Assembly: GCA_016182385.1 (NCBI GenBank)
Contig: JACPGV010000007.1
Location: forward strand, 12,147 to 76,146
DNA from: Candidatus Moraniibacteriota bacterium
GTDB lineage: Bacteria > Patescibacteriota > Minisyncoccia > Moranbacterales > UBA1568
DNA: 64,000 nt
Direction: 5' to 3'
The notes under the pieces were generated by a model. That model did no database searches and was not told the DNA's origin. It saw only the letters and a program-made list of their open reading frames with translations. Shown here in pieces: positions 23,906 through 43,201 of this stretch. The translations under genes and the position numbers were made by a program. The stretch's first letter is position 1, and every line of letters starts with the position of its first letter.

Positions 23906-23984
23906 GTTTTTCTAATAAAATCAACACGTCTCGCCAATGAGGAGACGTGTTGCGTGAAAAAGAGAACAAATTATTTTTCATCTA

Positions 23985-25976
23985 TCAATCTTTTTGCACA
24001 CATCGTTGCTTGAATCTCTCAGCTGAAAAACAACATGTTGTGCCAACACCACAACTTCCGGAAGGAAGAGAACATGTCATTCCAGTAGATGTTTTTACCC
24101 CATATTCATAATCACCCGCGAAAGGATCACACTGTGATCCGACGTCGTGGGGTCTCACGGCACCAATCATTTGATCGGTTGCACTAACCCAACCAGATCC
24201 CAAACTTACCGGTTCAGCCCATTTCCCTGTAATAATAACTCTTCCACAACCCGTGCCCGTCACAGTTGATCCACCGGCAGAAGGAGTGCATGTTGTCATG
24301 GTACCGTTGGGACAACACTGTGCTTTGATAGCGGGATCTCGTAAACACGATCGTGTTCCATCAGGAAGGGTGTCAACATACTCTTGTCTCGCCCAACCAC
24401 AGCTAATTGTTGTATTGTTAGTACCGCCTCCGCCACTACCAGTACCGCCACCCGTACCCTGTCCTTCGTCTGGTTTCCAAAGAACATTAAAGACGGAGCT
24501 TGAGATACAATACTGTGTTACTCTTTGACCATTTCTTCCTATCCATGATACATAATCATCTGTTTCTTGTGCATCCAAACAACGAGTACTTAACTGCTGA
24601 CGATCTTTACGCTTAATTGTATAGTAGTATGTTTTGCCAAATTGCAATGTCGGTTTTTTTGATTGACCATAGTATTCATTTATGGAAACAGTTTTTTCTT
24701 CCGGACCAACATTGTACCACACAGTTGTTGCAGAAGATATCATACTCACAAACACATCTTGAACCGTATCATCTTCACTTGCACAAGGATGATCGGAAAG
24801 TATGCCGATATAATCAGCCTCATCACCTTGTTTATAACTATAGAGTTCAAATTTACCTTCCCCAGTTATGTTTTCTCTGACTCGAAAAGGGAAAACGGCA
24901 ACCGAATGATAGTTCATTCGTTCCAATCCGGGAATATGAGGAAAACGGGAGGCAAAACTATCAATCGGTCCTCCGCTATACGTTACTTCATACGCCTGAC
25001 TTTCCGTAGAAAAAATCTCTCCGTTTTCATTCTTAATCACAATCGTCTTATCAAATCCCGGGCAACTGCCTGAGAAAGGTGTGGTGTTACCCTTGCTACC
25101 TCCACCTGTGCCATTTCCTGTATTCCCACCGCTTGTTGTCACATTGGTACCTGTCTTCACTGTGACATCAACCGTGTTTGTACTGATGGTTTCCTTGTCT
25201 TTGTTTTGCAAAGAAACACTGTAAGATCCCAAGACGATATCTTTGGGAACAGTAAAGGTGATGGAAGTCTTGGAGATATTCGTAAGAGGTATAGTATAGA
25301 CGGTACCAGTACTGGATGTGAGGGAAACTGAAAGATTGTCTTTGTTGAGATTATTTTCACCAAAGAATTCTTCGTATCGATCACCGTAAATGATGAGTCT
25401 TCCTTCGGTAGTAAGCGCGAGAGCTTTGTGGACGAAAGGCAGGAAAGAGCTCGGTGGAGGAGTCGGTACAACAGGAACAGTGACATCAGTATCGGGAGTA
25501 ACGGTCGTTTGAGTCGCTGTTTTGACATTGGAGGTCGTATCACAGCTGAAAGAAAAAGTACCATTGGCGTCCTTTTGTAGGCCCGGGATATTGGCAGAGA
25601 AAATGGAAAGGATGGTACTTACGATAAGCCACGCGGAGAGCATGACGGTCACACCGATGAGAGCGGCAAAGATGCCTCCTTTGGCTGTTTTCATGGTGCT
25701 TTCGTTACCAGAAGAGACAATATACAAAATAGCCATAGCGACAATAACCGCGATGGCGATATAGGTCATGATTTGAAGACCATACGAGATGACACCTTGA
25801 CCGCCAACAATAATATGGCAGGCGGTACAGGGTTTGGATTCATCGATATTTGTAGTTGTTGCATCATCCTGTGAACGACCGCAGGGTACTAAGGCAGCGT
25901 TTGATGTCTCAGGGAGAAGAAAGAAGAATGAAGAGGAGAGAAGAAGCACGAGAGAACACATACGAAGAAAAGACAT
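23985..25976 (-). CDS. large secreted Cys-, Gly- and Thr-rich protein with a TrbC/VirB2-like (T4SS-pilin-like) N-terminal module
   Basis: Signal peptide and a Cys pair (CGRS...CTAC), then two hydrophobic helices, then about 500 aa with G/T-rich linkers and many Cys residues. Confidence 0.5.
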   Translation of the reverse strand: MSFLRMCSLVLLLSSSFFFLLPETSNAALVPCGRSQDDATTTNIDESKPCTACHIIVGGQGVISYGLQIMTYIAIAVIVAMAILYIVSSGNESTMKTAKGGIFAALIGVTVMLSAWLIVSTILSIFSANIPGLQKDANGTFSFSCDTTSNVKTATQTTVTPDTDVTVPVVPTPPPSSFLPFVHKALALTTEGRLIIYGDRYEEFFGENNLNKDNLSVSLTSSTGTVYTIPLTNISKTSITFTVPKDIVLGSYSVSLQNKDKETISTNTVDVTVKTGTNVTTSGGNTGNGTGGGSKGNTTPFSGSCPGFDKTIVIKNENGEIFSTESQAYEVTYSGGPIDSFASRFPHIPGLERMNYHSVAVFPFRVRENITGEGKFELYSYKQGDEADYIGILSDHPCASEDDTVQDVFVSMISSATTVWYNVGPEEKTVSINEYYGQSKKPTLQFGKTYYYTIKRKDRQQLSTRCLDAQETDDYVSWIGRNGQRVTQYCISSSVFNVLWKPDEGQGTGGGTGSGGGGTNNTTISCGWARQEYVDTLPDGTRSCLRDPAIKAQCCPNGTMTTCTPSAGGSTVTGTGCGRVIITGKWAEPVSLGSGWVSATDQMIGAVRPHDVGSQCDPFAGDYEYGVKTSTGMTCSLPSGSCGVGTTCCFSAERFKQRCVQKD

Positions 25977-26025
25977 AAGAAAAGTTTTATTGTTTATGTT
26001 GGTTAGATTGTACCATGTTTTTTTA

Positions 26026-26355
26026 TTATTGGCTACTTTTCCCAGAAAAAATATCCCTCTTCAATACAGGTTGCTTTTCATGATCTATGGCGGCATGTTT
26101 CAATTGATCTACAGCTTCACGAAAACGACTCTCCCGAAAATTGGTTTCTTTAACATAGGAATCCAAAAATTTCTTTTTTTGTTCATCATTCCAACTATAA
26201 CGATGTAAACTATAATACCAAAACCACCCCCCAAAACCAAGTACCACGCAAAAACACAAAAAATAAAGAATTTTATAGTGTTTATACCAAAACACTAATG
26301 GCGCTCTTGATAAGAAAAAATTTTTTATCTGTTCAAATAATGAACGTATTTGCAT
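26026..26355 (-). CDS. small membrane protein, hypothetical
   Basis: One or two TM helices. Sits between the large secreted protein and pilO. Confidence 0.35.
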   Translation of the reverse strand: MQIRSLFEQIKNFFLSRAPLVFWYKHYKILYFLCFCVVLGFGGWFWYYSLHRYSWNDEQKKKFLDSYVKETNFRESRFREAVDQLKHAAIDHEKQPVLKRDIFSGKSSQ

Positions 26356-27141: not shown

Positions 27142-27705
27142 CTATTTATTTTTTCTGAGACATTCCATTTTTACGGAAAAATCCATTTCAAAATCAACAT
27201 TTTCCTGTGAAAAAAGATTCGAAATTGGCATATTAACATTCTCAACACAAGCGGCGCTTTTCAACCGGTGTTCAAACGAAAGAAGATCTTCGCGCTGTTT
27301 AGCCATACCGGATAACAAAACCGTATAATTTTTTGTTTGTATTGTATCCACAACAACACCTTCCGGTAACAACGCATCAAGCAAAATAAATACTTGCGTA
27401 AAATATAAGTGAAAATATTGAATTTTCCCTATCACGTCGGTTTTCTCGTTGGTTTCGCGAAAAGACATTTCGTATTCAGACAATTTCTTCTCTTGAGAGT
27501 ACATCGCTGTATCAATTCCGCTATCCACAGACTGATAACTTTTTAATTGAAAATCAAGAATAAAATAGATTCCAAAAAGAATACCAATATAAAAACATTC
27601 CAAAAGAAAAATCAAAAAAAGTTGCCATAACAAAAAACGAACGTGCAATCCTCGACGGATAATCGCTTTTTTTTCTTCTGGCAAAAGATTAAGCAAAGTC
27701 TTCAT
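27142..27705 (-). CDS. pilN: type IV pilus assembly protein PilN-like
   Basis: MKTLLNLLPEEKK (the INLLP motif) followed by a TM helix. Confidence 0.6.
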   Translation of the reverse strand: MKTLLNLLPEEKKAIIRRGLHVRFLLWQLFLIFLLECFYIGILFGIYFILDFQLKSYQSVDSGIDTAMYSQEKKLSEYEMSFRETNEKTDVIGKIQYFHLYFTQVFILLDALLPEGVVVDTIQTKNYTVLLSGMAKQREDLLSFEHRLKSAACVENVNMPISNLFSQENVDFEMDFSVKMECLRKNK

Positions 27706-28783
27706 ATTCGTCGAGGCCACGCAACGCGAGGCCGATAGCAGTTGAGTACTGCACTGAATGATTACGATCAATAAGCGGAATTTCTTTTCCTAACCGCACA
27801 TTCACCCACGGATTGCCAGATTCAACCGCTCGCTCCAAACGACGAGCCATATAGGGTAATAACCCAATCATATTTGATCCACCACCACAAAAGACAATCG
27901 TATCTACGGTATCAGAATAGCGAAGATTATTTAAATAAAAATCAATAGATTTTTCTATTTCCATGGCAATATTTTCCAATACCGGCTGTGCTGCCTTCAG
28001 TACCGGACTTTTGAGCGCAAGTGACCCCAACCCCTGTTTGATTTTTATCTCTTCCGCTTCATCAAAAGAAAGATGAAGTGCTTTGGAAATGGCATCCGTT
28101 ACCATCTGTGAAGAAAGAGGCACGCTCGAAGTAAAACACGGGGTACTACCAATGGCCACAAGAAAACTCGTTCGCCGATCACCAATATCTACGATGAGTG
28201 TCGTTCGTTTGTCATCTTTCTCGGGAAGCAAACTACGTGCCTGAGCAATAGATTCTGTTTCCAAACCGACCACTTCCAAACCAGCGCTTTCCAATACCGA
28301 CTGAAATTGATCGACAACGCTTCTCGCCACAGCCACCACCAAAATACTCATTTTCCCCTTCTCTTGAACCAAATCGGTATTAAGAATCTGCCAATCATAA
28401 TATACTTGATCAAGTGTCAGCGGTATATTGGCTTCCACTTCCCATTTGATTGCCTCTTGCGCTTCTTCTTTCTCCATTTTCGGTAACGTAATAATACGCA
28501 AAAAAGCCTTCGTTTCGGGTAAAGAACAAATCACTTTGCGAGTTTTAATCTTTTTTGGTCCAGCTTTTTCTAAGAGTTTGATTACTGCCTGACGCACCGG
28601 TTCAACATTCATGATTTCACCATCAATAACACTCCCCAGTGGCAAGGGAACAGAACCAAAACTCTCTATAGAATCTTGATTGCCCATACGATCAAGCCAC
28701 ACGGCTTTTATCGAAAGGTCAGAGAGATCCAGTCCAAAAGAATTAGGAAACAAATCAAAAATTTTTTTCTGTAAAATACTCAT
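27689..28783 (-). CDS. pilM: type IV pilus assembly protein PilM
   Basis: Actin-like ATPase fold, FGLDLSDLSIKAV N-terminus. Operon with pilN and pilO. Confidence 0.85.
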   Translation of the reverse strand: MSILQKKIFDLFPNSFGLDLSDLSIKAVWLDRMGNQDSIESFGSVPLPLGSVIDGEIMNVEPVRQAVIKLLEKAGPKKIKTRKVICSLPETKAFLRIITLPKMEKEEAQEAIKWEVEANIPLTLDQVYYDWQILNTDLVQEKGKMSILVVAVARSVVDQFQSVLESAGLEVVGLETESIAQARSLLPEKDDKRTTLIVDIGDRRTSFLVAIGSTPCFTSSVPLSSQMVTDAISKALHLSFDEAEEIKIKQGLGSLALKSPVLKAAQPVLENIAMEIEKSIDFYLNNLRYSDTVDTIVFCGGGSNMIGLLPYMARRLERAVESGNPWVNVRLGKEIPLIDRNHSVQYSTAIGLALRGLDEYEDFA

Positions 28784-28831: not shown

Positions 28832-30244
28832 CTATTTCTCCTCCCAAAGATCCATTTCATACTGTGTACCAGTCGGGAAATACGGTGGCGGACAATACAG
28901 AAGATTATTATCGTAATACAAATTACGTGTTTGATAACCAGTCCCATCCGTCCAAGCGAAACCATATCGTTCATTTGTAGCAATCGCTCCATAAATGGTG
29001 ATGGTACTCTTGGTAGAACCAGCGCCAGTATAATGCTGACGTCCCACACGTCCTTGTTGCGCCAAAAGCGCCGCGTCAATACGCAGATCGTCTTCGCTCC
29101 CCTTATAAATCTCCACGTTTTCTTGTCCAATAATACCGATGATATCAGTACAATCATAATGAGTGTAACGAACATCTTTTCCTATATACACACTTTTCAA
29201 TGATGCCGAGAGAAGATTCGCTGCCACGATAGTTACCCGTCTTCCGTCCACCGTTCCCTCAACCCACACATTATTTTCAACAAAAATCACTCCATCATTA
29301 GGAATCGGGTAATTCTGCCAACTTCCATAATAATTAGTAATTTGATTCGATGAACTACTTCCATTTCCACCATTAAAACTCTGCACTGTTCGGATATCAA
29401 AAGTATCATCACTCTTTAAAATAATATGCCGCCCCTGACGATTATTATCAAAATATAAACTCCCATTCACACCGGATTGCGCCTCACTTTTCATGTAATT
29501 CAAATCGCCTAACACTCCGTTGAAATCCGTGGTAGCCACTGGAAATACTCGTCCCGCCTCAAAAACATCTGTACGCGCGGGCACGGCCGCGGGTGGGAGT
29601 GGATCAGTCGGGCTATCATGCGTATGCACACCAAATTCATTTCCTCCCGTATGATCGGGGTCGTTAAAATCAGAAACCGAACTCGAAATAATATTGTGTG
29701 CCACGCCATCAAAACGAATGCCATAATTAGAATGAATTGGACCGAATGTTTCCGTTCCCGCGCCAAAACGAAGGAAGTCATTGGCTAAAACAATATTTTC
29801 ACTCCATGATGGACGGCGAAAACGCACCTCAAGAGTACGTGTTTCATTGGGATACCGATAAGTCCATCCCGTAGATTTCACGATAACACTTGTCGAGCCG
29901 GAATCAGGTGGCGTCACTTCCAAACGATATTTCCCAATAGCCGAACCGGAAGGATCATTGTATTCCACTTCATACGGCGTTCCCACGCCATACGGACTCC
30001 CCGTTTCCCAAAAATCACTGATCTGCTGAGTCGTTCTCCCTTCTACTTGATGCGCCAAATACCACCGATAAAAATGAATGCCCGACTCGGCAATTTGAAA
30101 AGCCTGTTCGCGACCATGCGTACGCAAAGAATACGTCGTTTGAGAAGATATAAAACCTAAAATAGCCGTCAAAATGACGGAAACGGTCGCCATCATTACA
30201 AGACCATACGCCACCATCGATCCCTTTTGTTTTTTCTTCATCAT
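28832..30244 (-). CDS. pilus-associated protein with a PilX-like N-terminus
   Basis: N-terminal hydrophobic anchor MVAYGLVMMATVSVILTAILGFISS and a large extracellular domain. Confidence 0.45.
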   Translation of the reverse strand: MMKKKQKGSMVAYGLVMMATVSVILTAILGFISSQTTYSLRTHGREQAFQIAESGIHFYRWYLAHQVEGRTTQQISDFWETGSPYGVGTPYEVEYNDPSGSAIGKYRLEVTPPDSGSTSVIVKSTGWTYRYPNETRTLEVRFRRPSWSENIVLANDFLRFGAGTETFGPIHSNYGIRFDGVAHNIISSSVSDFNDPDHTGGNEFGVHTHDSPTDPLPPAAVPARTDVFEAGRVFPVATTDFNGVLGDLNYMKSEAQSGVNGSLYFDNNRQGRHIILKSDDTFDIRTVQSFNGGNGSSSSNQITNYYGSWQNYPIPNDGVIFVENNVWVEGTVDGRRVTIVAANLLSASLKSVYIGKDVRYTHYDCTDIIGIIGQENVEIYKGSEDDLRIDAALLAQQGRVGRQHYTGAGSTKSTITIYGAIATNERYGFAWTDGTGYQTRNLYYDNNLLYCPPPYFPTGTQYEMDLWEEK

Positions 30245-30864
30245 AAAATTTCCAAATTACGTAGATCGGCAAACGATTCGATATTGATATTGTTCGGCGC
30301 GTGCACCGGGTCGATATTTACCAAAAGATGCACTCTTATCAAACGAACACTCTCCACGGCAACTGGCGTCGCGAGTGGGTTGTTTACCGTATCACCGGGA
30401 TAATTTTCATTATAAAAATAAAATACCGGGTCACTGTTTTCATTGACGATAAAATTGGCAAGTACCGTCACCGTATCATCAGAGGCAGGGTACGAAACAG
30501 GACTGGCACCTGTCGGATTGGTAACACCCATCTTAAACTGGTCGTTTGCCAAATCAAGAAAATAATGCACGCGCTCCACCACGCCATCATCATCAATATC
30601 GATATACACTTTCAAATCAAAGTCATCGCCCGATTCAACAGGAAAATCTCCATTATCCGCTTGTCGCACGCTTCGTAAAGTAGCAACAACATCATTTGTT
30701 GCCCGAGATGCGATACTCGAGGCCATTCCTTCCTCCAAGATAAACTTGTTATTATCCCAACTTCTCAAAAAAAGAAGTGTGAAACCTTCCATCGCAATGA
30801 GTGAAATACCCACCGCGATCAACATCTCCATAAGACTCATCCCTTTTCGTGTTCTAGTAATCAT
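30241..30864 (-). CDS. type IV pilin-like protein (minor pilin or pseudopilin)
   Basis: Class III signal peptide RKG|MSLMEMLIAVGI with Glu at +5. Confidence 0.65.
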   Translation of the reverse strand: MITRTRKGMSLMEMLIAVGISLIAMEGFTLLFLRSWDNNKFILEEGMASSIASRATNDVVATLRSVRQADNGDFPVESGDDFDLKVYIDIDDDGVVERVHYFLDLANDQFKMGVTNPTGASPVSYPASDDTVTVLANFIVNENSDPVFYFYNENYPGDTVNNPLATPVAVESVRLIRVHLLVNIDPVHAPNNINIESFADLRNLEIL

Positions 30865-30874
30865 AGGACAAAAA

Positions 30875-32248
30875 TCAACTGGGGTTTAACGCTACTGCTT
30901 CTTCAACCAAGCCACCTCCGATACCAATGGTAGAACTATCGGACTGAAATCCCGTCGCACTCACCTCAAGATCGTACGATCCTGCCACCAAAGCCGGTAA
31001 TGACTCAGGAAAATAGACGTACCCAAAAACATCTGTCGTCAACGTAACATCATACCCGGAAACACTCTCAACAAGATGTACCGTCGCCCCTTGTATCGGC
31101 GTACTGTCGGACTGATTAGTCACTTTGACCCAAAGAGAGTTCACGGCGTCATCAAGCATCACAAGAGAAATATTTTTATCTACTCCCGGAGAAACATCAA
31201 AGCCATCAACGGTTGTGCCGTCCGGAGTAATTTTATAAAAAGTATATCCTGCTTTCGTTACACCGCTTACCGTATACATTCCATAACTCTGATCAGAAAA
31301 ACTTTCTTCTCCGGAACCATCCGTCGTCGTCGTTTGTGAAAAACCATACACGGAAGTCGCTGGACTCACAGTAAGATCCGATCCGAGCACTCTTCCACCA
31401 GAAATGGTAAAAGCGACATCGGAAACAGCGGTACCAAAAGGATCTTCACTTTCTACGTTCATACTCGCGTCCTGATCAATAACCATCGTTACCTGATTCA
31501 AAACATCGGCTACCACGGAAGCGTGCGCGTCCACCGGACTGAAAGAAGCGCTGGGAGCATACGTGATAGCGCCATAATATCCTCCCTTAGAAACCGTCAA
31601 TTCATAACTCTGTGTTCCTGCCGGCGTTCCCGGAAGCATAATATTACCGGTCGAATCCGTTGATGTCGTCACATCAACCCCTGTAGAAGAATTTTCAATA
31701 TGGACCGTTGCTCCCGAAACACCGGAACCGGTAGCATCAATAATGTTGATCGAAAAAACACCTCCCCCCGCCGATGTTTCCACACCATTTGGAGAAAAAT
31801 TCGCAAAAACGGCTATTGATTGATCATCACCACCGCTCCCCCAAGACACCGTCAAACGAACACGCTTATAATCATTAGGAACGGTATCATTCGGGCTTCC
31901 GGACAAAACACCATCAAAAGAATCATCAACATACTGCACGAATGTATGGATATTGTACTGCGACGCATTGACTGATACCGCTTCATCTTCAAGAATATCT
32001 CCCGCTGGTATACCATACACCCACGCGGTCCCATTCCAACGTTTTGTGCCGATGGAATCATATTCGATACTTCTAATAATTTCCATTTTTTGATTGGCGA
32101 GCGCCGTCGCGCCAAGTCGGTTTTTTGACTCAATAATCATCCTTGAACCGGTAATGTACACTTCCAAAAAAGTGAATGAAACAACGGCAAACAGAAAAAG
32201 AAACGTCAAAGCCTCTATCAAAACTATTCCTTTCAGTGTTTTTCGCAT
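30875..32248 (-). CDS. large pilin-like protein with repeated CarboxypepD_reg-like (Ig-like) domains
   Basis: Prepilin-type N-terminus LKG|IVLIEAL. The pattern GATVHxxxSxxGxDVTxTTDxxG occurs twice. Confidence 0.55.
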   Translation of the reverse strand: MRKTLKGIVLIEALTFLFLFAVVSFTFLEVYITGSRMIIESKNRLGATALANQKMEIIRSIEYDSIGTKRWNGTAWVYGIPAGDILEDEAVSVNASQYNIHTFVQYVDDSFDGVLSGSPNDTVPNDYKRVRLTVSWGSGGDDQSIAVFANFSPNGVETSAGGGVFSINIIDATGSGVSGATVHIENSSTGVDVTTSTDSTGNIMLPGTPAGTQSYELTVSKGGYYGAITYAPSASFSPVDAHASVVADVLNQVTMVIDQDASMNVESEDPFGTAVSDVAFTISGGRVLGSDLTVSPATSVYGFSQTTTTDGSGEESFSDQSYGMYTVSGVTKAGYTFYKITPDGTTVDGFDVSPGVDKNISLVMLDDAVNSLWVKVTNQSDSTPIQGATVHLVESVSGYDVTLTTDVFGYVYFPESLPALVAGSYDLEVSATGFQSDSSTIGIGGGLVEEAVALNPS

Positions 32249-32270
32249 CCTCCTTATGCTTGCCATAAAA

Positions 32271-33491
32271 TTATTTGATATTTTCCAATACACTATACAT
32301 CGGCTGGAGCATCGCTACGGCAAAAAATCCGACCGATCCTCCGATAAGAAGCATAAGAATCGGTTCAATGATAGAAGACATGTTTTTGGTGATCTGTGAA
32401 ACTTCTTCTTCGTAAAACTCAGCCAAACGCTGAAGTACTGTTTCTGTTTTTCCCGTTTCCTCTCCCACTTCGAGAATCTGTGGCACGAGTATGGGAAAAA
32501 TGCGAGGATATTTGGAAATAATTTTACTGAGCTCGACACCTTTTTGGATTTCCGCCATAGCATCAGCGAGAGCGTCTTTGTAATACACGTTACTCAGTGT
32601 TTTGGAGACGATTGTCAAAGCGCTAATGACGGAAATACCACTTTTCAAAAGTGAACTATAAATACGAGCAAAACGGGCGCAATTTACTTTAACAACGATA
32701 TTACCAATGATAGGCATATAAATAAACAATAAACCAAAAAAACGCTTGCCAAAAGCCGTGCCGGAAAATATCTTGATCCCAAAGAGAAATCCCACGACAA
32801 CCAATACGCTTATGATGGCATGATTACGAAGAAAATCACTCAAGGCGATAATAAAAAGAGTTGTGGCCGGCAACTGCACCCCCATTTCACCGAAAACACC
32901 GGTGATTTTTGGTAAAATATATGTCAACATCAAAATAGCGATAGCTACCATTGCCAACAAAATCACTGCCGGATAAATAAGCGCGCCACGCACCTTGGAA
33001 AGAAGATCGTGTTCCTTTTCCAATTGAAGCGCCAAAATATCGAGCACTTCTTCAAGATTGCCGCTTACTTCGCCAACACTCACCATATTCACAAAGAGCT
33101 CGCTGAAAACCGATGGGTACTTGGCCAGTCCTTCAGAAAGAGTCTTGCCAGCCTGCACATCGTCATAAACACTGAGAAGAATCTTGTTAAATCGTTTATT
33201 TTTTGTCTGGAAACTGAGATTATGAACGGCTCGCGATACGGTAAGGCCAGACGACACCATAACCGAAAGGTTGCGCGTAAAAATCATTTTTTCCTTAAGC
33301 GGGACTGTGGCAAAACGATCAAAAAATTTGATATCAAGAGATGATGCCGCTTCCAATTCGCGATGTGATGTAAGCAACAACCCCTGCGCCCGCAAATCTT
33401 GCGCCAGTGTTTTCTCGTCTTTTGCTTCCATCTCACCGCCGGATGTTTCTCCGGTAGAGATATTTTTTGCCGTATACAAAAACTTCGGCAT
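32271..33491 (-). CDS. pilC: type IV pilus inner-membrane platform protein (GspF family)
   Basis: Duplicated GspF domains. Start placed at MPKFLYTAKNISTGE. Confidence 0.9.
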   Translation of the reverse strand: MPKFLYTAKNISTGETSGGEMEAKDEKTLAQDLRAQGLLLTSHRELEAASSLDIKFFDRFATVPLKEKMIFTRNLSVMVSSGLTVSRAVHNLSFQTKNKRFNKILLSVYDDVQAGKTLSEGLAKYPSVFSELFVNMVSVGEVSGNLEEVLDILALQLEKEHDLLSKVRGALIYPAVILLAMVAIAILMLTYILPKITGVFGEMGVQLPATTLFIIALSDFLRNHAIISVLVVVGFLFGIKIFSGTAFGKRFFGLLFIYMPIIGNIVVKVNCARFARIYSSLLKSGISVISALTIVSKTLSNVYYKDALADAMAEIQKGVELSKIISKYPRIFPILVPQILEVGEETGKTETVLQRLAEFYEEEVSQITKNMSSIIEPILMLLIGGSVGFFAVAMLQPMYSVLENIK

Positions 33492-34710: not shown

Positions 34711-37524
34711 TTACAGGTATTTTGCCGTAAAACTTTTCTTGCATGTTTTCAGTTTCTCCGGATGTCCAGAAAAAATCATCTCCCCGCCACTTTCGCCACC
34801 ATCTGGTCCAAGTTCCAATACCCAATCCGCCGCGCGAATAACATCAATGTTGTGTTCTACCACAAGCACGCTGTTTCCTTTATCAACAAGCGCTTCCAAA
34901 ACTTCCAAAAGTCGACGTACATCCTCAAAATGCAATCCGATCGTCGGTTCATCAAGAATATACAGCGTCTTACCGGTCGACTTCCGCGCCAATTCGGTTG
35001 CCAATTTGATACGTTGAGCCTCACCGCCGGAAAGATTGGTTGCCGATTGTCCAAGCACCAAATATCCGAGACCTACCTCATCCAATACGCGAAGTTTCTC
35101 CTCAATCATCGGCTGATCGAGAAAAAACGATCGCGCTTCTGTAACTGTCATTCGGAGCACTTGAGCAATATTCGTTCCACGATATTCAATAGAAAGTGTT
35201 TTTTGATTATAACGCGTTCCCTGACACACTTCACACGGCACATAAACATCAGGCAAAAGATACATTTCTATTTTTTTCAAGCCCCCACCCTGACAAGCCT
35301 CGCACCGACCACCACGCATATTGAAACTGAAATGACTGGCAGAGTATTTTTCTCGTTCCGCTTCTCCTGTCGCCGCAAACAAATCACGGATAAGGCTAAA
35401 AACTCCCGTATAGGTCGCCGCATTAGAACGCGGTGTACGGCCGATCGGGTCTTGATTGACGGAAATAACTTTATCGATATTTCCTAGTCCTTCAATTTTC
35501 TTATATTTCCCCGGCTCCGCCTTGGCATGATAGAAATGTTTGGCAAGCGCACGCGACAAAATATCATGAACGAGACTTGATTTTCCCGATCCAGAAACAC
35601 CAGAAACCGCCACCAACATACCAAGCGGAATTTTCACGTCTATATTTTTCAAATTATGCTCTTTTGCTCCATAGATAGTGATGGCTTCTTTCCCTAACGC
35701 GCGCGCCTTCTTTTTTTCGGACACTTTGCGCTTACCAGAAAGGTATTGTCCCGTAAGCAGAGTAGAGCGCAACAATTTGTCCGGCGTACCAGAAAAAATA
35801 ATTTCACCGCCCTCGCTCCCCGCTCCCGGGCCAAGATCGATAATATAATCCGCCCGTCGCATAATGGCAACATCATGCTCGACAATAACCAGCGAGTTAT
35901 TAGCAGCACGCAAATCCTCCAACGCGTGAATAAGTTTTTCCGTATCACGACTATGAAGGCCCACCGACGGCTCATCAAGAACATAAATAATACCCGACAA
36001 ACCAGACTTCATCTGTACCGACAAACGAATACGTTGAGCCTCGCCACCAGAAAGCGTGTCAGCACTGCGAGAAAGTTCCAAATATCCCAAACCCACTTTT
36101 TCCACGGCGCGCATCCGTGTCTCCATCTCACGAAATAAGGGGTCAACCATGTCCTTTTCCCCTTCTTTCAAAAGTTTTTCTTTCAAAGGTTTCAACGCGA
36201 TAAGAAATTTTTCCACACTCAACGAAACCACTTCATGAAGTGATACGCCGTTTACCAATACCGCGAGAGAAGATTTTTTTAATCGCTTCCCCTCGCAGGC
36301 AGGACAAAGTTTCGTCAGCATATAGGCCTCAATCTCCGCCCGCAGATGATCAGATTTTGTCTCACGATATTTCCGTTCAAGTAAACTGATAACACCAGGA
36401 AAAGCATCCTCTCTCTTCTCTTCTTCACCAAACACGATTGAACGATACTGTTTTGACGATAATTTTTTTATGGGAACATCAAGAGAAAATCTCTGTCGAC
36501 GACTCAAATCACGCAGCCACTGCATCGGACCATGACTGGCTTGTCGGTCGCTATTCATTTTACTCCACGGTCGAATGGCCCCCTCGGCGATTGAAAGGTT
36601 TTTATTCGGAATGATAAGTTCCGGATCAAATTCAAGCGTCACGCCAAGACCGGCACATTTCTCACACGCGCCTTCAGGGCTATTGAAAGAAAAATGACTC
36701 GGCGTAAGCTCGGGAACACCAAGACCACACTCCTCACATCGATATTCTTCATTATAGACGCGTTCTTCCCCGCTTCCATTCACGCGCAAAAAAAGCGTAC
36801 CGCTTCCGACACGAAAAGCCGTTTGCAAAGAATCAATAATGCGCTCCTTATCCGGTCGCGCCAAATCAATAGTCAAACGATCAACGATAACCCCGATATT
36901 GGAAATCTCCGTAGCGGATGCACGTGCCAAAGCTTCAGCCAAAGGAAGAACCTCTCCGTGAAACAAAACACGCACATATCCCCACGCATTCACCAAAGAA
37001 AGTGCTTCCCGTTCAGTTTTTTCTTCCAACGTTTTGCTGTAAGCCAAAAAAATAAGCGGCGTGTTATCAGGAAACGTCAAAAGTTCCTCCAAAATCGCGC
37101 GCACACTTTTTCGTTTGAGCGGTTTGGCGCAAGTAGGACAATGCGGATGTCCCATCTTGGCATACAGAATACGCAAATAATCATACACTTCTGTCATTGT
37201 TCCAACGGTCGAACGCGGGCTTTTGGAAACACTTTTTTGATCAATGGAAATAGCCGGGGAAAGATTATGAATAGCGTCAACTTCCGGCTTCTCAAAACCA
37301 TCAAGAAAATTCCGCGCATACGAAGAAAGCGACTCGACGTATCGTCGATTCGCCTCCGCAAACAATGTATCAAAGGCCAGTGAAGATTTTCCCGATCCGG
37401 AAAGACCCGTCACGACAACGAGCGAATCACGCGGAATATCAACATCCACGTTTTTCAAATTATTCACTCGTGCACCTCTAATTTCAATCACTGATTTTTT
37501 GCCTGGCATAGGGCCACCGCTCAT
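34711..37524 (-). CDS. uvrA: excinuclease ABC subunit A
   Basis: 937 aa. Tandem ABC ATPase modules, LSGGE and Walker motifs, zinc modules. Confidence 0.95.
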
Positions 37525-37584: not shown

Positions 37585-38844
37585 TCACCTCGCCGTCAAA
37601 AATTCCTTGTCCCGACGATGACGATGATACGCGATAGCAAAACGATGCGCCTCGCTATTCGCAAGCATGATACTTTCACGGAAATGAGCAAGTTCAACCG
37701 GAAGACCAATAATATCTTTTGGCCGATGATGTTTATCCTTCACGACACCAACCAAAAGAGGAAGCGTCCCACTTTGTGAAAATAATTTTTCCGCTACCTG
37801 ACGTTGCAACCACGCGCCGTCCGTCACCACGATATCAGGCATCCGCCATCGCGTATGTGTCAATCTCCGCCGGACAATTTCTTCCAACGCGGACAAATCA
37901 TTTCCCCGATGATTTTCCCGCAAACGAAACTTTCTGTATTCCTCCTTATTCTCTTTGCCGTTCTCAACGACTGTCATGACCCCAACGCTCGCCTCTCCTT
38001 GCAAGTGTGCCACATCAAAAGCCTCAATACGCACTCCCCAGCGTTTCTCCTCTGTCACCTCTTGATCCTGTCCTTTTATGAGAGCCACGTCCTGAATGTG
38101 TTCCAAAGCAAATACCGTTTTCTTTATCTCTCCCGCTCGTTCAAAATCAAGCTTCTTGGCCGCTTCTCGCATTTCACGTTGCAATTTTTTTATGATAGCT
38201 ATTTTATGTCCTTCAAAAAACAAACGAATATGAGTCACCGTTTGCCCATAGTCGCGCGCGGATACTTCTCCCACGCACACCCCAGGGCAAAGTCCGATCT
38301 GCGCGGAAAAACATTTTTTCGAATTCGGAACACACTTATCACGATACGGGAAAATCTTACGAATGATTTTCATTGCCTCGCGAAGCTGCGTCCCATGCGG
38401 AAATGGTCCAAAAATATATTTGACCGGATCGGTAAATTTTTTCTGTTCGATATCCCGACCACGAACAATAAGTATTCGCGGGAATTTTTCCTTAGTAATG
38501 ATTACATGATTATAGCTTTTGTCATCTTTGGCATCAGTATTATAAGGTGGTTGATATTTTTTGATGAGGCTGGTTTCGAGAATGAGCGCTTCAATGACCG
38601 AATCGGTTTCATGATAGCCGATGGCTCGCACACCCTCAAGCATCCGTGCGATTTTCGGCCCACGTGTTTCCATGATATCGGCTGAAAAATAACTTCTCAC
38701 CCGATCACGCAACACTGTTGCTTTACCGATATAGAGCACTTCTTGTTTCGCTCCCAAGAAAAAATACACTCCCGGAGTTTCCGGTAATGTGTTTTTCTTA
38801 CGAAACGTCGCCAATAATATTTTCTTTTTCCAAGGAAAAGACAT
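37585..38844 (-). CDS. uvrC: excinuclease ABC subunit C; lacks the C-terminal (HhH)2 domain
   Basis: GIY-YIG domain (GVYFF...YIGKA), UvrBC-interaction region and RNase H-like domain (IEAFDVAHLQG). Start placed at MSFPWKKK. Confidence 0.85.
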   Translation of the reverse strand: MSFPWKKKILLATFRKKNTLPETPGVYFFLGAKQEVLYIGKATVLRDRVRSYFSADIMETRGPKIARMLEGVRAIGYHETDSVIEALILETSLIKKYQPPYNTDAKDDKSYNHVIITKEKFPRILIVRGRDIEQKKFTDPVKYIFGPFPHGTQLREAMKIIRKIFPYRDKCVPNSKKCFSAQIGLCPGVCVGEVSARDYGQTVTHIRLFFEGHKIAIIKKLQREMREAAKKLDFERAGEIKKTVFALEHIQDVALIKGQDQEVTEEKRWGVRIEAFDVAHLQGEASVGVMTVVENGKENKEEYRKFRLRENHRGNDLSALEEIVRRRLTHTRWRMPDIVVTDGAWLQRQVAEKLFSQSGTLPLLVGVVKDKHHRPKDIIGLPVELAHFRESIMLANSEAHRFAIAYHRHRRDKEFLTAR

Positions 38845-38896
38845 AAGTAAAAACATTGAAACACTTCCCCAATAGAAAAGCAACTTTTGGCTCTCC

Positions 38897-38930
38897 TGTT
38901 GACTTTTTTTCATTTTGGATGTACAATATA
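38897..38930 (+). promoter_or_regulatory. promoter TTGACT-18-TACAAT
   Basis: Near-consensus hexamers upstream of the 38956 ORF, with a GAGGAG Shine-Dalgarno. Confidence 0.45.
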
Positions 38931-38955
38931 AGAAGTTCATTTTGAGGAGACTCAA

Positions 38956-39213
38956 ATGGAAGTTTCCGATATCTCCAAGCACGTTTTTTCACGCATGGGG
39001 GTACCAAGAAGTTTCTCCCTGGAAGCTTTTCAAAAAGCCTTCAGGGAAGAATTAAGAGCGAGGGGGCTTGGAAAAGACCTTGCTCAATATCGGTACCTTT
39101 TCGGACAAGTGGTCCGAAAGGTAAAGGGGTTTGTAAAAAAACCCCCAAAGAACCTTCCCGAGATACGGAAGGTACCCGATTTCAAAAGGTTAGCCGCTAA
39201 CGACTGCGACTAA
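38956..39213 (+). CDS. small basic ORF (85 aa), or the 5' part of a structured RNA
   Basis: Good promoter and SD, but the coding region is packed with strong hairpins. No family recognised. Confidence 0.3.
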   Translation: MEVSDISKHVFSRMGVPRSFSLEAFQKAFREELRARGLGKDLAQYRYLFGQVVRKVKGFVKKPPKNLPEIRKVPDFKRLAANDCD

Positions 39214-39854: not shown

Positions 39855-42455
39855 TTATCTCGTAAGGTGTCGAGATAAAACCCGTTTCAAGTACCGCCCC
39901 GTATGCGAAAGTGCATTCTTCGCCACTTCTTCAGGTGTACCGGAAGCGACAATTTTTCCGCCACCCACTCCTCCCTCAGGACCAATGTCAATAATGTAGT
40001 CAGCCGATTTGATAAGATCCATATTGTGTTCGATAACTAGTACCGTGTTTCCTTTGACCACTAACGTCATAAGAATCTCAATCAATTTCCGCACATCTTC
40101 ATAATGCAGTCCGATCGTCGGTTCATCCAAAAGGTACACCGTGCGCTCAAGCATCGGCCGATACAATTCCGAAGCGATTTTAACACGTTGCGCTTCGCCG
40201 CCGGACAAAGTGGTCGCCGATTGACCAAGTTTCAGATATCCCAACCCGACTTCATTCAGCGTCTTCAAACGATCTGCTATCGCCGGAATATCGGAAAAAA
40301 ATGAAAAGGCTTCCTCAATGGTCATTTCGAGCACTTGATAAATATTCTTCTGTTTGTATTTCACCTCGAGAGTTTCCTTGGTAAAACGCTTTCCATCACA
40401 CACATCACACGGCACGTACACCGTCGGAAGAAAATGCATCTCCACGGCAAGAAATCCATTCCCCTCACATGTCTCGCAACGGCCACCGGGACGATTGAAA
40501 GAAAATCTTCCCACTTTCCAGCCGCGCACTCGCGCCTCTTCCGTCGAAGCAAACAAATCGCGAATATGCGTAAAAGCGCCGGTATACGTCGCCGGATTGG
40601 ATCGTGGCGTCCGACCAATCGGGCTCTGATCGATAAGCACCGCGCGCGACAGATACTCGCTCCCAACAAACGATTGACAATGAAAAACTTCGTTCGAACG
40701 ATAACGACGATCAAAGCGCGCTTGCAAATTTTTATAAACAATTTCGTACAGAAACGTCGATTTTCCTGATCCGGAGACGCCAGTAATAGCCACCAGACGA
40801 CCAAGCGGGATATCAACATTCAAATGAGCTATATTGAACAATCGCGCGCCACGAATTTTTATCGTCCCCTTCTCCTTGCTTCGGCGCGTTACTGGCACAG
40901 AAACCATCTCTTCGCCACGCAAATACCCCAGCGTGAGCGAACGAGAGTGATTTTTTTCCGCCATAAGCAATTCATCAAGGTATCCCGAAACAACCACGTT
41001 TCCGCCATGCACGCCGGCGCCGGGACCAATATCGACAATATAATCGGAAGCGTAAATAGTATCCTCATCATGTTCGACAATGATGATAGTATTGCCAAGA
41101 TCACGAAGCGATTGCAGTGTTTCGATCAAGCGTTCATTATCACGCTGATGCAAACCAATCGTCGGTTCATCAAGAACATAAAGTGCTCCAACCAACTGCG
41201 AACCGAGCTGACTCGCCAAACGAATACGCTGAGCCTCGCCGCCCGAAAGCGTGTTGGCGCGACGATCGAGTGTGAGATACGTCAGACCAACATTCAAAAG
41301 AAATGTAAGTCGCGCGCCAATCTCACGCAAAACAACCGCCGCGATCTGTTCTTCACGCTCAGAAAGCGTCAAAGTTTCGAAGAACGCGCTGGCTTCCTCA
41401 ATGGTCATCATGGAAAGCTCGACGATATTTTTTCCCCCGATACGGATATGCAACGCTTCCTCACGTAATCGCGACCCATGACACTCCCCGCATGGTTCAT
41501 CGCCAAAAAAATGTTTGGTACCAAGACCATTACACGCCGTGCACGCGCCGTACGGTGAATTAAAAGAAAAAAGTCGAGGTTCCACCTCCGGATAAGAAAA
41601 CCCATCATATGGACAAGAAAACTTCGAGGAAAGAACAAACGATTCTTTCCCGATACGAACAGTCACCAGACCACCGCTTTCTTCAAGCGCTCGTTCGACT
41701 GCCTCAGACAATCGTTCTCTCGATGTCTCGGGAAATTTCTCAAACTCCTCAAGTGTCATTTCATCAACGAGAAGATCGATGTCATGTTTCTTGTTTTTTG
41801 AAAGAAGAATTTGCTCTCGTAAACTTTTACGAACGCCGTCGAGAAATATTTCAGCAAACCCGTTGTGCAAAGCGTTGTACAAAAGTTGATAGTATTCCCC
41901 CTTTCGGCCGCGAACGACCGGCGCGGCAATGACGAGGGTTTCCGCCACTTTCTTTTTTCCTTTTTTCGGAAACGCCGCGCGAACACGTTCAGCGACAAGC
42001 AAAAGCATTTCTTCCGTCGACAATTTTTGTATTTCACGATCACACAGCAAACAATGCGGCCGACCAAGACGAGCATAGAACACTCGCAAATAATCATAGA
42101 TCTCCGTCACCGTCGCCACCGTCGAACGCGGATTCCGGCTGGCTGACTTTTGATCAATAGAAATAGCCGGCGACAAACCGACAATCTCATCGACATCGGG
42201 CTTTTGCATGGTATTCAAAAATTGTCGCGCGTACGCAGAAAGAGATTCGACGTATCGTCGTTGTCCTTCGGCAAAAATGGTGTCAAAAGCAAGAGAAGAC
42301 TTTCCCGATCCGGAAAGACCGGTAAACACTATCATCTTGTTTCGCGGCATGCGAACGGTAATATTTTTCAAGTTGTGCGTTCGTGCGCCGCGTACCTCAA
42401 TCCATTCACTGGGATCAATTTTTTTACGGCTAGAACGCTTCTGTTTCAAAAGCAT
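39855..42455 (-). CDS. UvrA paralog (second excinuclease ABC subunit A-like protein)
   Basis: [34 protein letters not shown] and two ABC modules. About 866 aa, shorter than the first uvrA. Confidence 0.9.
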   Translation of the reverse strand: MLLKQKRSSRKKIDPSEWIEVRGARTHNLKNITVRMPRNKMIVFTGLSGSGKSSLAFDTIFAEGQRRYVESLSAYARQFLNTMQKPDVDEIVGLSPAISIDQKSASRNPRSTVATVTEIYDYLRVFYARLGRPHCLLCDREIQKLSTEEMLLLVAERVRAAFPKKGKKKVAETLVIAAPVVRGRKGEYYQLLYNALHNGFAEIFLDGVRKSLREQILLSKNKKHDIDLLVDEMTLEEFEKFPETSRERLSEAVERALEESGGLVTVRIGKESFVLSSKFSCPYDGFSYPEVEPRLFSFNSPYGACTACNGLGTKHFFGDEPCGECHGSRLREEALHIRIGGKNIVELSMMTIEEASAFFETLTLSEREEQIAAVVLREIGARLTFLLNVGLTYLTLDRRANTLSGGEAQRIRLASQLGSQLVGALYVLDEPTIGLHQRDNERLIETLQSLRDLGNTIIIVEHDEDTIYASDYIVDIGPGAGVHGGNVVVSGYLDELLMAEKNHSRSLTLGYLRGEEMVSVPVTRRSKEKGTIKIRGARLFNIAHLNVDIPLGRLVAITGVSGSGKSTFLYEIVYKNLQARFDRRYRSNEVFHCQSFVGSEYLSRAVLIDQSPIGRTPRSNPATYTGAFTHIRDLFASTEEARVRGWKVGRFSFNRPGGRCETCEGNGFLAVEMHFLPTVYVPCDVCDGKRFTKETLEVKYKQKNIYQVLEMTIEEAFSFFSDIPAIADRLKTLNEVGLGYLKLGQSATTLSGGEAQRVKIASELYRPMLERTVYLLDEPTIGLHYEDVRKLIEILMTLVVKGNTVLVIEHNMDLIKSADYIIDIGPEGGVGGGKIVASGTPEEVAKNALSHTGRYLKRVLSRHLTR

Positions 42456-42502
42456 AGAATGACCCTTACGAATGGTCAGTATAGCCCAAAGAGAAGAAAG
42501 AA

Positions 42503-43201
42503 TCAAAGATATTCAAGAAGAGCACGATATTCGTCCTCCCGTTCCGGATGCACGACAAGCTCAATGGGACCCTGAGGGACCTGTTTGGCAAATGCGTTGA
42601 AATCACCAAACCAATCAAAGCTGACAAGATAATCGGATGTTGGCACCGGTTGTTTTTCATATGATGTCTTTGTTTGCTTCCAAAGAAAAGACAAAATATT
42701 TCCTACCAAAGCGCTATGCATATCGGTAAGCATACCCTTCTTTCCGAAACGCACATAACCAATATCATAACGTTTGGCGAGACCAAGAAAAACACGAAAA
42801 AATTTCGGAAAATGATGCACATATTCGTGCGAATTCAAACCATCCGGATATCGTCGGAAGAGTTCGTGAAAACGCTCTATCTGATCCCGCCATTCCGTTT
42901 CCACTTTTTTCGCGGTTAATAATCCAAAAAAATATCGCCACAAAAAGTTCGCTCCGCGCAAAAACGTATTTTCATGCATCTTATATCCGCGCTTGAGCAA
43001 TCCAATAAGCTCAAGATGAAGATCGATTTTTACACCGGTGGCCAGCAATGCTTCGGCCTGTTCGTGAGAAACATAATGAATAAGCACGGACACGCGATCA
43101 ATTTTTCCCTCACGCACCAAACGCAAAATGGGTTCCGCCGTTTGACGGATCCCATAATCATCAGCAACAACGACAAACCTCTCCCGCGTATCTTCTGTCA
43201 T
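42503..43201 (-). CDS. ChbG/YdjC-family carbohydrate deacetylase
   Basis: FVVVADDYGI N-terminal motif of the YdjC family. Confidence 0.7.
   Translation of the reverse strand: MTEDTRERFVVVADDYGIRQTAEPILRLVREGKIDRVSVLIHYVSHEQAEALLATGVKIDLHLELIGLLKRGYKMHENTFLRGANFLWRYFFGLLTAKKVETEWRDQIERFHELFRRYPDGLNSHEYVHHFPKFFRVFLGLAKRYDIGYVRFGKKGMLTDMHSALVGNILSFLWKQTKTSYEKQPVPTSDYLVSFDWFGDFNAFAKQVPQGPIELVVHPEREDEYRALLEYL

What the first reader, a model, noticed from the sequence alone, without database searches (positions are those of the whole stretch)
23985..25976. 663-aa secreted Cys-rich protein with a TrbC/VirB2-like pilin N-terminal module
The signal peptide, Cys pair and two hydrophobic helices follow a T4SS-pilin-like layout. 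This is fused to a long C-terminus with Gly/Thr-rich linkers, at least 25 Cys residues and short repeated blocks (GTGGG..., TTCTPS...). The gene sits immediately beside the pilM-pilN-pilO and pilin genes. The protein is a candidate surface appendage or adhesin of unknown type.
Basis: partly seen in the sequence, partly recalled or inferred. Interest (0 to 1): 0.55.

Follow-up and report, generated by a model that had tools for sequence, protein, structure and literature searches.

The report
Pilin-anchored orphan surface protein in Moranbacteria
This gene from an ultra-small Candidatus Moranbacteria bacterium joins a conserved secretion-system "pilin" membrane module to a 515-residue cysteine-rich outer region that has no relatives outside its own genome, and it is probably a surface or pilus-borne adhesin unrelated to the type IV pilus genes beside it.

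Summary
The ORF is real: window 23985-25976, minus strand, 663 aa, from a Candidatus Moranbacteria MAG. Residues 28-149 are a genuine member of the Patescibacteria "T4SS_pilin" family (PF18895). The Pfam score is just below threshold, but hhalign against canonical array pilins gives 98.9% probability (E 1.4e-17), and a profile of the module finds 238 relatives, mostly ~150-aa stand-alone pilins. Direct similarity to proteobacterial VirB2/TrbC is not detectable, and fold searches return only generic helical hairpins. The module belongs to a subfamily with an invariant C-x17-CxxCH...C pattern. That subfamily normally leads tandem pilin arrays and sometimes carries a lytic transglycosylase or a beta-propeller. 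Residues 150-663 (Ig-like domain, orphan beta-rich domain, 12-Cys domain, Gly/Thr linkers) match only one paralogue in the same genome among 1.84 billion representatives. The pilM-N-O adjacency is accidental. In 53 related genomes rlmN follows the pilus block directly (median gap 89 bp, against 2,121 bp here), and the gene has its own promoter-like site and terminator. Best reading: a cargo-bearing pilin paralogue displaying a fast-evolving adhesin-like region. It is a new variant of a known kind, of moderate interest.

The parts
26007..26035 (-). Promoter-like site (TAGCCA, 17 nt, TACAAT with TG extended -10) 31 nt upstream of the ATG
   Evidence: Consensus scan, 9 of 12 matches with TG. A consensus match only; 8 such sites were found in the region against 5.8 expected.
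25896..25976 (-). Signal peptide, residues 1-27 (MSFLRMCSLVLLLSSSFFFLLPETSNA|A)
   Evidence: Hydropathy; AF2 helix 2-20; small residues at -3 and -1; the family consensus ...AxAA|GLVPCG is conserved. Cleavage is inferred, not tested.
25530..25895 (-). PF18895-type (VirB2-like) pilin module, residues 28-149: extracytoplasmic Cys segment, helix 1, short basic loop (SSGNESTMKTAKG), helix 2, then the NGTFSFSCDT motif
   Evidence: Pfam PF18895; profile search with 238 hits; hhalign 98.9% over residues 60-128; local HMM E 1.6e-14; AF2 pLDDT 80.
25815..25829 (-). Invariant C50-T-A-C53-H54 (CxxCH) motif immediately before helix 1
   Evidence: Invariant in 105 aligned sequences; present in 124 of 128 retrieved proteins; absent from the other five pilins of the L001 array. 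Role unknown.
25443..25529 (-). Thr/Pro/Val-rich linker, residues 150-178
   Evidence: Sequence composition.
25152..25442 (-). Ig-like beta-sandwich, residues 179-275, no Cys
   Evidence: AF2 gives seven strands at pLDDT 55-68; weak Pfam MG2 (E 0.0066) and Big_13 (E 0.0099) hits. 52% identical to the paralogue.
25080..25151 (-). Gly/Thr/Asn-rich linker, residues 276-299 (contains GTGGG)
24468..25079 (-). Orphan beta-rich middle domain, residues 300-503, 4 conserved Cys; motifs FSGxCP, PF(K/R)V, LS(D/E)xPC, GKTYY. Duplicated in the paralogue.
   Evidence: Alignment of the three copies; no relatives in the 5.8-billion protein database, in 1.84 billion representatives, in Pfam or in the PDB. The AF2 model is unusable.
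24417..24467 (-). Gly-rich linker, residues 504-520 (GQGTGGGTGSGGGGT)
   Evidence: DNA direct repeat D5.
23988..24416 (-). C-terminal Cys-rich domain, residues 521-663, 12 Cys (10 conserved in the paralogue)
   Evidence: No relatives in Pfam, the PDB or the exhaustive search.
23914..23952 (-). Intrinsic-terminator-like hairpin (23922-23952; a 13-pair stem, 11 pairs contiguous) followed by AUUUUAUU, 33 nt after the TGA stop
   Evidence: RNA fold of the 85-nt segment: -22.4 kcal/mol, z = -3.15 against shuffles. Function is inferred.

Best explanation
The gene encodes a cargo-bearing paralogue of the Patescibacteria T4SS-type (PF18895, VirB2-like) pilin. Proposed steps: (1) Sec export and signal-peptidase cleavage after residue 27 (inferred). 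(2) The two conserved helices insert as a hairpin, with the short Lys-containing loop in the cytoplasm and both ends outside (inferred from hydropathy, charge, and extracytoplasmic enzymes flanking the same module in relatives). (3) The four conserved Cys and the His on the outer face (C32, C50xxC53-H54, C145) tie the N-terminal segment to the segment after helix 2, through disulfides or a metal (inferred). (4) The 515-residue C-terminal region projects outward on flexible Thr/Pro and Gly linkers and acts as an adhesin or host-recognition module. Its order is an Ig-like spacer, an orphan beta-rich domain and a 12-Cys domain (function inferred). The pilin module either keeps the protein at the membrane next to the pilin assembly site or lets it enter the T4SS pilus at low stoichiometry. 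In a pilus its C-terminus would face outward, as in F-type pilins. The gene is an independent transcription unit inserted in this lineage and is not part of the neighbouring type IV pilus operon.
For: Family membership of the module. Helical hairpin with a confident model. Very high conservation of the hairpin across unrelated cargoes (54-78% identity, many invariant intramembrane residues) and 82% between the paralogues against 32-33% for the distal domains. This argues that the hairpin makes specific protein contacts while the distal domains evolve fast, as exposed recognition surfaces do. Topology: P0007 has a subtilase before the module and an SLT domain after it, both extracytoplasmic enzymes. 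There is an even number of Cys in every domain, and 18 of the 20 mature Cys are conserved in the paralogue. Modularity: 78 of 92 family members end 7-10 residues after the conserved Cys and 14 carry tails longer than 30 aa; cargoes include SLT and an NHL/YncE beta-propeller. Link to the pilin system: stand-alone and SLT-bearing members of this subfamily are the first gene of tandem PF18895 arrays at a conserved locus. Literature: VirB4 is present in 2,417 of 3,035 Patescibacteria assemblies, VirB2-like pilins are widespread, no PrgB-like adhesin was detected and most genomes lack VirB1 (PMC12102498). A pilin array is essential in Southlakia (PMC10633639; PMC12857230). In F-type pili the extreme C-terminus is surface-exposed and the basic loop lines the lumen (PMC10939261). 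Independence from the type IV pilus genes: (0 of 53).
Against: No T4SS component and no other PF18895 gene lies in the 64-kb window, and the rest of the MAG could not be examined. No Patescibacteria T4SS pilus has been seen experimentally, so polymerisation of any PF18895 protein is itself an inference. A 515-residue cargo on a pilin is sterically hard to fit into a helical polymer other than at the tip or at low frequency. The C-terminal region has no recognisable adhesin domain and its structure could not be predicted (pLDDT 36), so 'adhesin' rests on architecture alone. Direct VirB2 homology is undetectable. The Pfam score is below the gathering threshold.
Confidence: 0.55

Rival explanations
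1. Pure membrane anchor. The pilin-like hairpin is never polymerised and has no dealings with a T4SS. It simply tethers extracytoplasmic domains to the cell's own membrane, and the C-terminal region acts on or within the cell's own envelope.
For: SLT cargo on the same module makes most sense acting on the cell's own peptidoglycan. No T4SS genes lie in the window. Fused relatives such as P0004 sit among housekeeping genes.
Against: Simple anchors do not usually keep 54-82% identity and invariant intramembrane residues across unrelated cargoes. The subfamily's default position is at the head of pilin arrays, which implies co-function with the other pilins.
Confidence: 0.27
2. Type IV pilus (PilMNO-dependent) accessory protein or tip adhesin, as the gene neighbourhood suggests.
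For: It lies 49 bp downstream of the last gene of the pilM-pilN-pilO-orf109 block, on the same strand.
Against: The protein has no prepilin-type N-terminus and no NCBIfam match at all (sequence). In 53 related genomes with the same block, rlmN follows orf109 directly (median gap 89 bp, maximum 580), and none of the 80 loci contains the gene. It has its own promoter-like site and terminator. Relatives are never next to type IV pilus genes.
Confidence: 0.05
3. Haem- or metal-binding redox protein. The invariant CxxCH is a c-type haem attachment site (or a Cys/His metal site), making the module an extracytoplasmic electron-transfer or metal-sensing element.
For: CxxCH is invariant in 105 aligned sequences and present in 124 of 128 retrieved. 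There are faint magnetochrome-domain hits in 6 of 8 members. DsbD/CcdA-type thiol-reductant exporters are present in the window and three genes upstream of one array.
Against: There is a single motif in a short coil with no cytochrome fold. Saccharibacteria, like other Patescibacteria, generally lack a respiratory chain (PMC10633639). No haem-lyase gene (CcsBA or Ccm) was seen in any locus examined. Four outward-facing Cys are more simply two disulfides.
Confidence: 0.05
4. Assembly or annotation artefact: a chimeric or frameshift-fused ORF, or a decaying pseudogene.
For: The C-terminal region is an orphan and the gene is unique to this lineage at this site.
Against: The 1,992-nt frame is uninterrupted. 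A paralogue on another contig has the same domain order, 49% identity and 18 of 20 Cys conserved. G+C is 44.3%, like its neighbours. Other members carry cargo on the same module.
Confidence: 0.03

Closest known systems
Pfam PF18895 T4SS_pilin: VirB2-like pilins of Patescibacteria (Quinonero-Coronel et al. 2025, PMC12102498; essential pilin array of Ca. Southlakia epibionticum, Wang et al. 2023, PMC10633639)
   Same: Signal peptide, two hydrophobic helices and the short loop motif Y-[IL]-x-S-x-G-[ND]-E...A-K; hhalign 98.9%. Close relatives head tandem pilin arrays.
   Different: 663 aa instead of about 90-160. Carries a 515-residue orphan extracellular region. Belongs to a subfamily with an extra N-terminal Cys/CxxCH segment and a Cys after helix 2. 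A solitary gene, not in an array and not near virB4 in this window. Pfam score below threshold.
TrbC/VirB2 (PF04956) and F-type TraA conjugative pilins of diderm T4SSs
   Same: Overall layout: a leader, a hydrophilic N-terminal segment, hydrophobic helix, short basic loop, hydrophobic helix, and a C-terminus that is exposed on the pilus surface (PMC10939261).
   Different: No detectable sequence similarity (hhalign 1.5%). No specific structural match. No cyclisation or acetylation signals could be assessed. The organism is a monoderm with a Gram-positive-type T4SS.
VirB1-type lytic transglycosylases encoded immediately upstream of virB2
   Same: In relatives the same pilin module is fused to an SLT domain and sits directly upstream of the pilin genes, echoing the virB1-virB2-virB3 order seen in the loci fetched here.
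   Different: The target itself has no SLT domain; its cargo is an unrelated orphan region.
Gram-positive T4SS surface adhesins (PrgB type)
   Same: A large, linker-rich surface protein that could mediate cell-cell contact for a monoderm T4SS.
   Different: No sequence or domain similarity. Anchoring is by a pilin-like hairpin rather than an LPXTG/sortase signal. PrgB-like proteins were not detected in Patescibacteria (PMC12102498).

Membership tests
PF18895 T4SS_pilin (Patescibacteria VirB2-like pilins) | Score at or above the Pfam gathering threshold (26.6 bits) | tested here: not met
   21.9 bits full length and 25.2 bits for the isolated module. Several close relatives pass: P0115 44.2, P0120 30.2, P0029 28.0 bits.
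PF18895 T4SS_pilin (Patescibacteria VirB2-like pilins) | Profile-level homology to canonical family members | tested here: met
   hhalign of A2 against array pilins A5: 98.9%, E 1.4e-17, residues 60-128. An HMM of the array pilins hits the target at E 1.6e-14. 238 relatives were found; most of the 120 listed carry a precomputed PF18895 assignment.
PF18895 T4SS_pilin (Patescibacteria VirB2-like pilins) | Signal peptide plus two hydrophobic helices joined by a short loop with the conserved G-[ND]-E...A-K motif | tested here: met
PF18895 T4SS_pilin (Patescibacteria VirB2-like pilins) | Small protein (about 90-160 aa) encoded in a pilin array and/or near virB4 | tested here: not met
   663 aa. It is the only PF18895-like ORF in the 64-kb window, and Pfam found no T4SS genes there. 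The rest of the genome was not available.
TrbC/VirB2 (PF04956) | Detectable sequence or profile similarity to VirB2/TrbC | tested here: not met
   No PF04956 hit. hhalign against 5 genuine VirB2/TrbC proteins gives 1.5%. Only a transitive, borderline link exists through the array pilins (48%, E 1.9e-4).
TrbC/VirB2 (PF04956) | Structural match to solved conjugative pilins | tested here: inconclusive
TrbC/VirB2 (PF04956) | Polymerises into a T4SS-dependent pilus with bound phospholipid | not testable with these tools
   Requires cryo-EM or cryo-ET, or biochemistry.
Type IV pilin / pseudopilin (prepilin-peptidase substrates) | N-terminal G|(F/M)xxxE cleavage and methylation motif | tested here: not met
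   The N-terminus is MSFLRMCSLV...SNA|ALVPCG. The target has no NCBIfam match, so no TIGR02532 hit, whereas the neighbouring ORF 30241-30864 does have one.
c-type cytochrome | CxxCH haem attachment motif | tested here: met
   C50-T-A-C53-H54 is invariant in the subfamily. The motif alone is not sufficient.
c-type cytochrome | Cytochrome fold or family match, and a haem-maturation system in the genome | tested here: inconclusive
   Only faint magnetochrome hits driven by the motif (E >= 0.05). No maturation genes were seen in the loci examined, but whole genomes could not be scanned.

The most novel reading that the evidence does not exclude
The CxxCH subfamily of PF18895 pilins may be a dedicated cargo-carrier (tip or initiator) pilin of the essential Patescibacteria T4SS pilus. 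Its C-terminus would be a modular display site carrying a lytic transglycosylase (the 'missing' VirB1), beta-propellers, or, as here, fast-evolving Cys-rich host-recognition domains (the 'missing' adhesin). The target would then be a strain-specific host-specificity determinant delivered on a T4SS pilus of a monoderm bacterium.
Probability: 0.3. Interest if true: 0.7.

Novelty: new variant of a known kind. Interest (0 to 1): 0.42.

Why it matters
Patescibacteria depend on host bacteria. Their Gram-positive-type T4SS and its pilin array are essential in the one species tested genetically, yet nobody knows what the pilins build or how host contact is made, and surveys found no T4SS adhesin and usually no VirB1. 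This analysis shows that one conserved pilin subtype serves as a platform for extracellular cargo: lytic transglycosylase, a beta-propeller, or an orphan Cys-rich region. That gives concrete candidates for those missing functions and a testable handle on host specificity. The particular gene, however, is a lineage-restricted orphan whose function remains inferred.

Tried and rejected
1. Solved VirB2/TraA pilins by sequence profile: nothing.
4. Relatives of the C-terminal region: exhaustive phmmer, a 3-copy profile of the middle domain, relaxed Pfam on the sub-domains, PDB profiles and NCBIfam. All were empty apart from weak Ig-like hints.
5. The paralogue's locus: not on record, and the MAG is not among the GTDB representatives, so the rest of the genome (T4SS, pilin array) could not be inspected.
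6. Insertion mechanism: no flanking repeats of note and no compositional anomaly.
7. tRNA and Rfam scans of the window: nothing.
8. Lipoprotein reading of 'LVPCG': rejected, because Pro at position -1 does not fit a lipobox (my own knowledge of the lipobox consensus).
9. Literature searches for cargo-bearing VirB2-like pilins: none found in the searchable library.

Full report
OBSERVATION. The ORF exists exactly at 23985-25976 but on the minus strand (ATG at 25976, TGA at 23985-23987; 663 aa). It is identical to a hypothetical protein of a Candidatus Moranbacteria MAG, locus tag HYV45_02895. Hydropathy shows a signal-like N-terminus (1-27) and two strongly hydrophobic stretches at about 62-90 and 100-130. 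There are 21 Cys rather than 25 or more: 1 in the signal peptide, 4 in the N-module, 4 in the middle domain and 12 in the C-terminal domain. 'GTGGG' occurs twice, once in each Gly-rich linker. 'TTCTPS' occurs once, so it is not a repeat.

N-TERMINAL MODULE. The only Pfam hit of the protein is PF18895 T4SS_pilin, just below the gathering score: 21.9 bits full length and 25.2 bits for the isolated module, against a cut-off of 26.6. The first homologue search showed that residues ~28-150 are shared at 54-61% identity with proteins that otherwise differ completely (SLT transglycosylases, a subtilase+SLT protein, a beta-propeller protein) and at 78% with the in-genome paralogue.

A profile of this module retrieved 238 proteins. 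Most are stand-alone proteins of about 150-160 aa from Moranbacteria. Most of the 120 listed carry a precomputed PF18895 assignment and three are named 'pilin' by NCBI. Three further tests gave these results:
- hhalign of the 105-sequence alignment against 11 canonical array pilins: 98.9% probability, E 1.4e-17, covering both helices and the loop.
- An HMM built only from those canonical pilins, searched against the window's ORFs: it hits the target at E 1.6e-14 and nothing else in the 64-kb window.
- AF2 with the deep alignment: a confident helical hairpin, helices 52-87 and 92-129, pLDDT about 90.

Membership in the PF18895 family is therefore established at profile level, although the curated Pfam cut-off is narrowly missed.

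The VirB2 relationship thus rests on three things: layout, Pfam's and the literature's classification (PMC12102498), and faint TrbC co-hits in array members. It is a resemblance in how the module is built. Homology was not demonstrated here.

A SUBFAMILY WITH CxxCH. In the 105-sequence alignment C32, C50, T51, C53, H54, Y85, G90, A98, K99 and G108 are invariant, and C145 is nearly so. CxxCH occurs in 124 of the 128 retrieved proteins. It is absent from the other five pilins of the array in L001. All four Cys and the His lie on the predicted outer face. I cannot tell whether they form two disulfides, a metal site or, least likely, a haem attachment site.

GENOMIC POSITION OF THE SUBFAMILY. Stand-alone members P0009, P0070 and P0128 are each the first gene of a tandem run of PF18895 genes, followed by 4 to 7 more, at a conserved locus: methyltransferase and a solute-binding protein, plus BipA in two of the three, then the array, then Band_7 on the opposite strand. 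The SLT-bearing members P0003 and P0005 occupy the same leading position, with three further PF18895 genes after them and, for P0003, BipA immediately upstream. This recalls the virB1-virB2-virB3 order of the proteobacterial loci I fetched. P0004, which carries an NHL/YncE propeller, is a solitary gene between murJ and lepA. Of the 92 members in which both motifs could be located, 78 end 7-10 residues after the conserved Cys, 14 have tails longer than 30 aa and 8 have tails longer than 100 aa. The target's tail is the third longest.

C-TERMINAL REGION. Residues 150-663 comprise:
- a Thr/Pro linker;
- an Ig-like beta-sandwich at 179-275 (AF2 pLDDT 55-68; weak MG2 and Big_13 hits);
- a Gly-rich linker;
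- a beta-rich domain of about 200 residues with 4 Cys, duplicated in the paralogue;
- a second Gly-rich linker;
- a 143-residue domain with 12 Cys.

An exhaustive phmmer search of 1.84 billion representatives found only the protein itself and the in-genome paralogue P0002. A three-copy profile of the middle domain found nothing further. Relaxed Pfam, PDB profiles and NCBIfam were also empty. AF2 at alignment depth 2 failed with pLDDT 36.

Identity to the paralogue falls from the membrane outward: 82% for the pilin module, 52% for the Ig-like domain, and 32-33% for the two distal domains. Eighteen of the 20 mature Cys are conserved. This is the pattern expected of a conserved anchor carrying a rapidly diverging, disulfide-stabilised exposed region.

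NEIGHBOURHOOD. Upstream on the same strand lie orf109, a PilO-like protein, PilN, PilM, a 470-aa pseudopilin-like protein, a prepilin-type protein, a CarboxypepD_reg protein and PilC. Downstream lie rlmN, miaB, an ExoIII-like nuclease and mgsA.

I fetched 80 PilM-anchored loci from species-representative genomes at 53-86% PilM identity. The block orf470-pilM-pilN-pilO-orf109-rlmN-miaB is conserved. In all 53 loci where both flanks are present, rlmN follows orf109 directly, with a median gap of 89 bp and a maximum of 580 bp. The gap here is 2,121 bp. None of the 80 loci contains the target's C-terminal region.

The gene is therefore a lineage-specific insertion next to the pilus cluster. It has no compositional anomaly and no flanking repeats. 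It has a promoter-like site with a TG-extended -10 just upstream and a hairpin plus U-tract 33 nt after its stop (z = -3.15). Pfam found no T4SS component anywhere in the window.

MECHANISM (inferred). The signal peptide directs the N-terminus out. The two helices then return the chain to the outside, with the short K96/K99 loop in the cytoplasm. P0007 supports this topology, because it has a subtilase before the module and an SLT domain after it. In F-type pilins the propilin inserts in the same way. [quoted passage not shown] A C-terminal cargo is thus topologically compatible with display on a pilus.

VirB4 is present in 2,417 of 3,035 Patescibacteria assemblies. No PrgB-like adhesin was detected, and most genomes with VirB2-like pilins lack VirB1 (PMC12102498). 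The pilin array is essential in Ca. Southlakia (PMC10633639; PMC12857230).

I therefore favour a cargo-bearing pilin paralogue that displays an adhesin-like region, either at the membrane beside the pilin assembly site or at low stoichiometry or at the tip of the T4SS pilus (confidence 0.55). The main rival is a pure membrane anchor with no T4SS involvement (0.27). The type IV pilus, haem and artefact readings are each at 0.05 or below.

NOVELTY. The pilin module is a known kind, described in 2023-2025. I did not find a description of cargo-bearing members in the searchable literature. This protein's cargo is an orphan confined to one MAG lineage. I rate it a new variant of a known kind, of moderate interest.

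Noticed in passing
window 25815-25829 (-); family alignments A1 and A2: An invariant CxxCH (formally a haem-c attachment motif), plus two further conserved Cys, defines a subfamily of PF18895 pilins. It is absent from the other five pilins of the L001 array. Whether it forms disulfides, a metal site or a haem site is unknown.
   Followed up: partly
L001 10001-13525; L005 10001-13817; L006 10001-15089; L092 2775-5638; L093 536-3593: Conserved Moranbacteria pilin locus. A CxxCH-type pilin, stand-alone or fused to an SLT lytic transglycosylase, is always the first gene of a tandem run of PF18895 pilins. Some array members are double-module or 300-400 aa long. The SLT fusions may be the 'missing VirB1' of these systems.
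   Followed up: partly
proteins P0128, P0037, P0016: Weak NCBIfam hits (best E 2.8e-5, below the cut-off) to NF045849, 'Mbov_0395 family pilin-like conjugal transfer protein' of Mycoplasma ICEs. This is a possible link between Patescibacteria pilins and a monoderm T4SS class said to lack VirB2.
   Followed up: no
proteins P0029, P0093, P0102, P0116, P0120: Several short-tailed family members end in one or two copies of a ~40-residue six-Cys module (C-G...G-x-C...C...C-x-x-G-x-x-C-C). The target's last 50 residues end in a loosely similar ...C-x6-C-x5-CC pattern. Not analysed further.
   Followed up: no
window 56922-60347 (-), 60366-61709 (-), 56351-56896 (-): A copper-type cluster with unusual fusions: a P-type ATPase (HMA + E1-E2 + hydrolase) carrying a C-terminal YncE-like beta-propeller region (1141 aa), a 447-aa HMA + DsbD_2 + cupredoxin protein, and a separate cupredoxin/COX2-like protein.
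   Followed up: no
window 34711-37524 (-), 39855-42506 (-), 37585-38982 (-), 45799-47871 (-): Two UvrA paralogues flank uvrC, with uvrB nearby. The second UvrA (883 aa) gave no Pfam hit to the UvrA DNA-binding domain.
   Followed up: no
window 28832-30244 (-), 30241-30864 (-), 30875-32293 (-): The type IV pilus cluster includes a conserved 470-aa protein with a pseudopilin-like hydrophobic N-terminus and no Pfam family (present in all 80 related loci at 35-75% identity), and a 472-aa prepilin-like protein carrying CarboxypepD_reg/SpaA-type beta-sandwich domains. These are candidate minor or tip pilins.
   Followed up: no
window 27689-27771: The listed PilN ORF (TTG start) overlaps pilM by 83 nt. 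An internal Met (MKTLLNLLPEEKK) is the more likely start.
   Followed up: no
loci L012, L016, L018 and many others: Many of the closest PilM loci come from records titled 'uncultured Bdellovibrionales bacterium', although their gene content and identity (up to 86%) match Moranbacteria. This is probably a taxonomic mislabel in those TPA assemblies.
   Followed up: no
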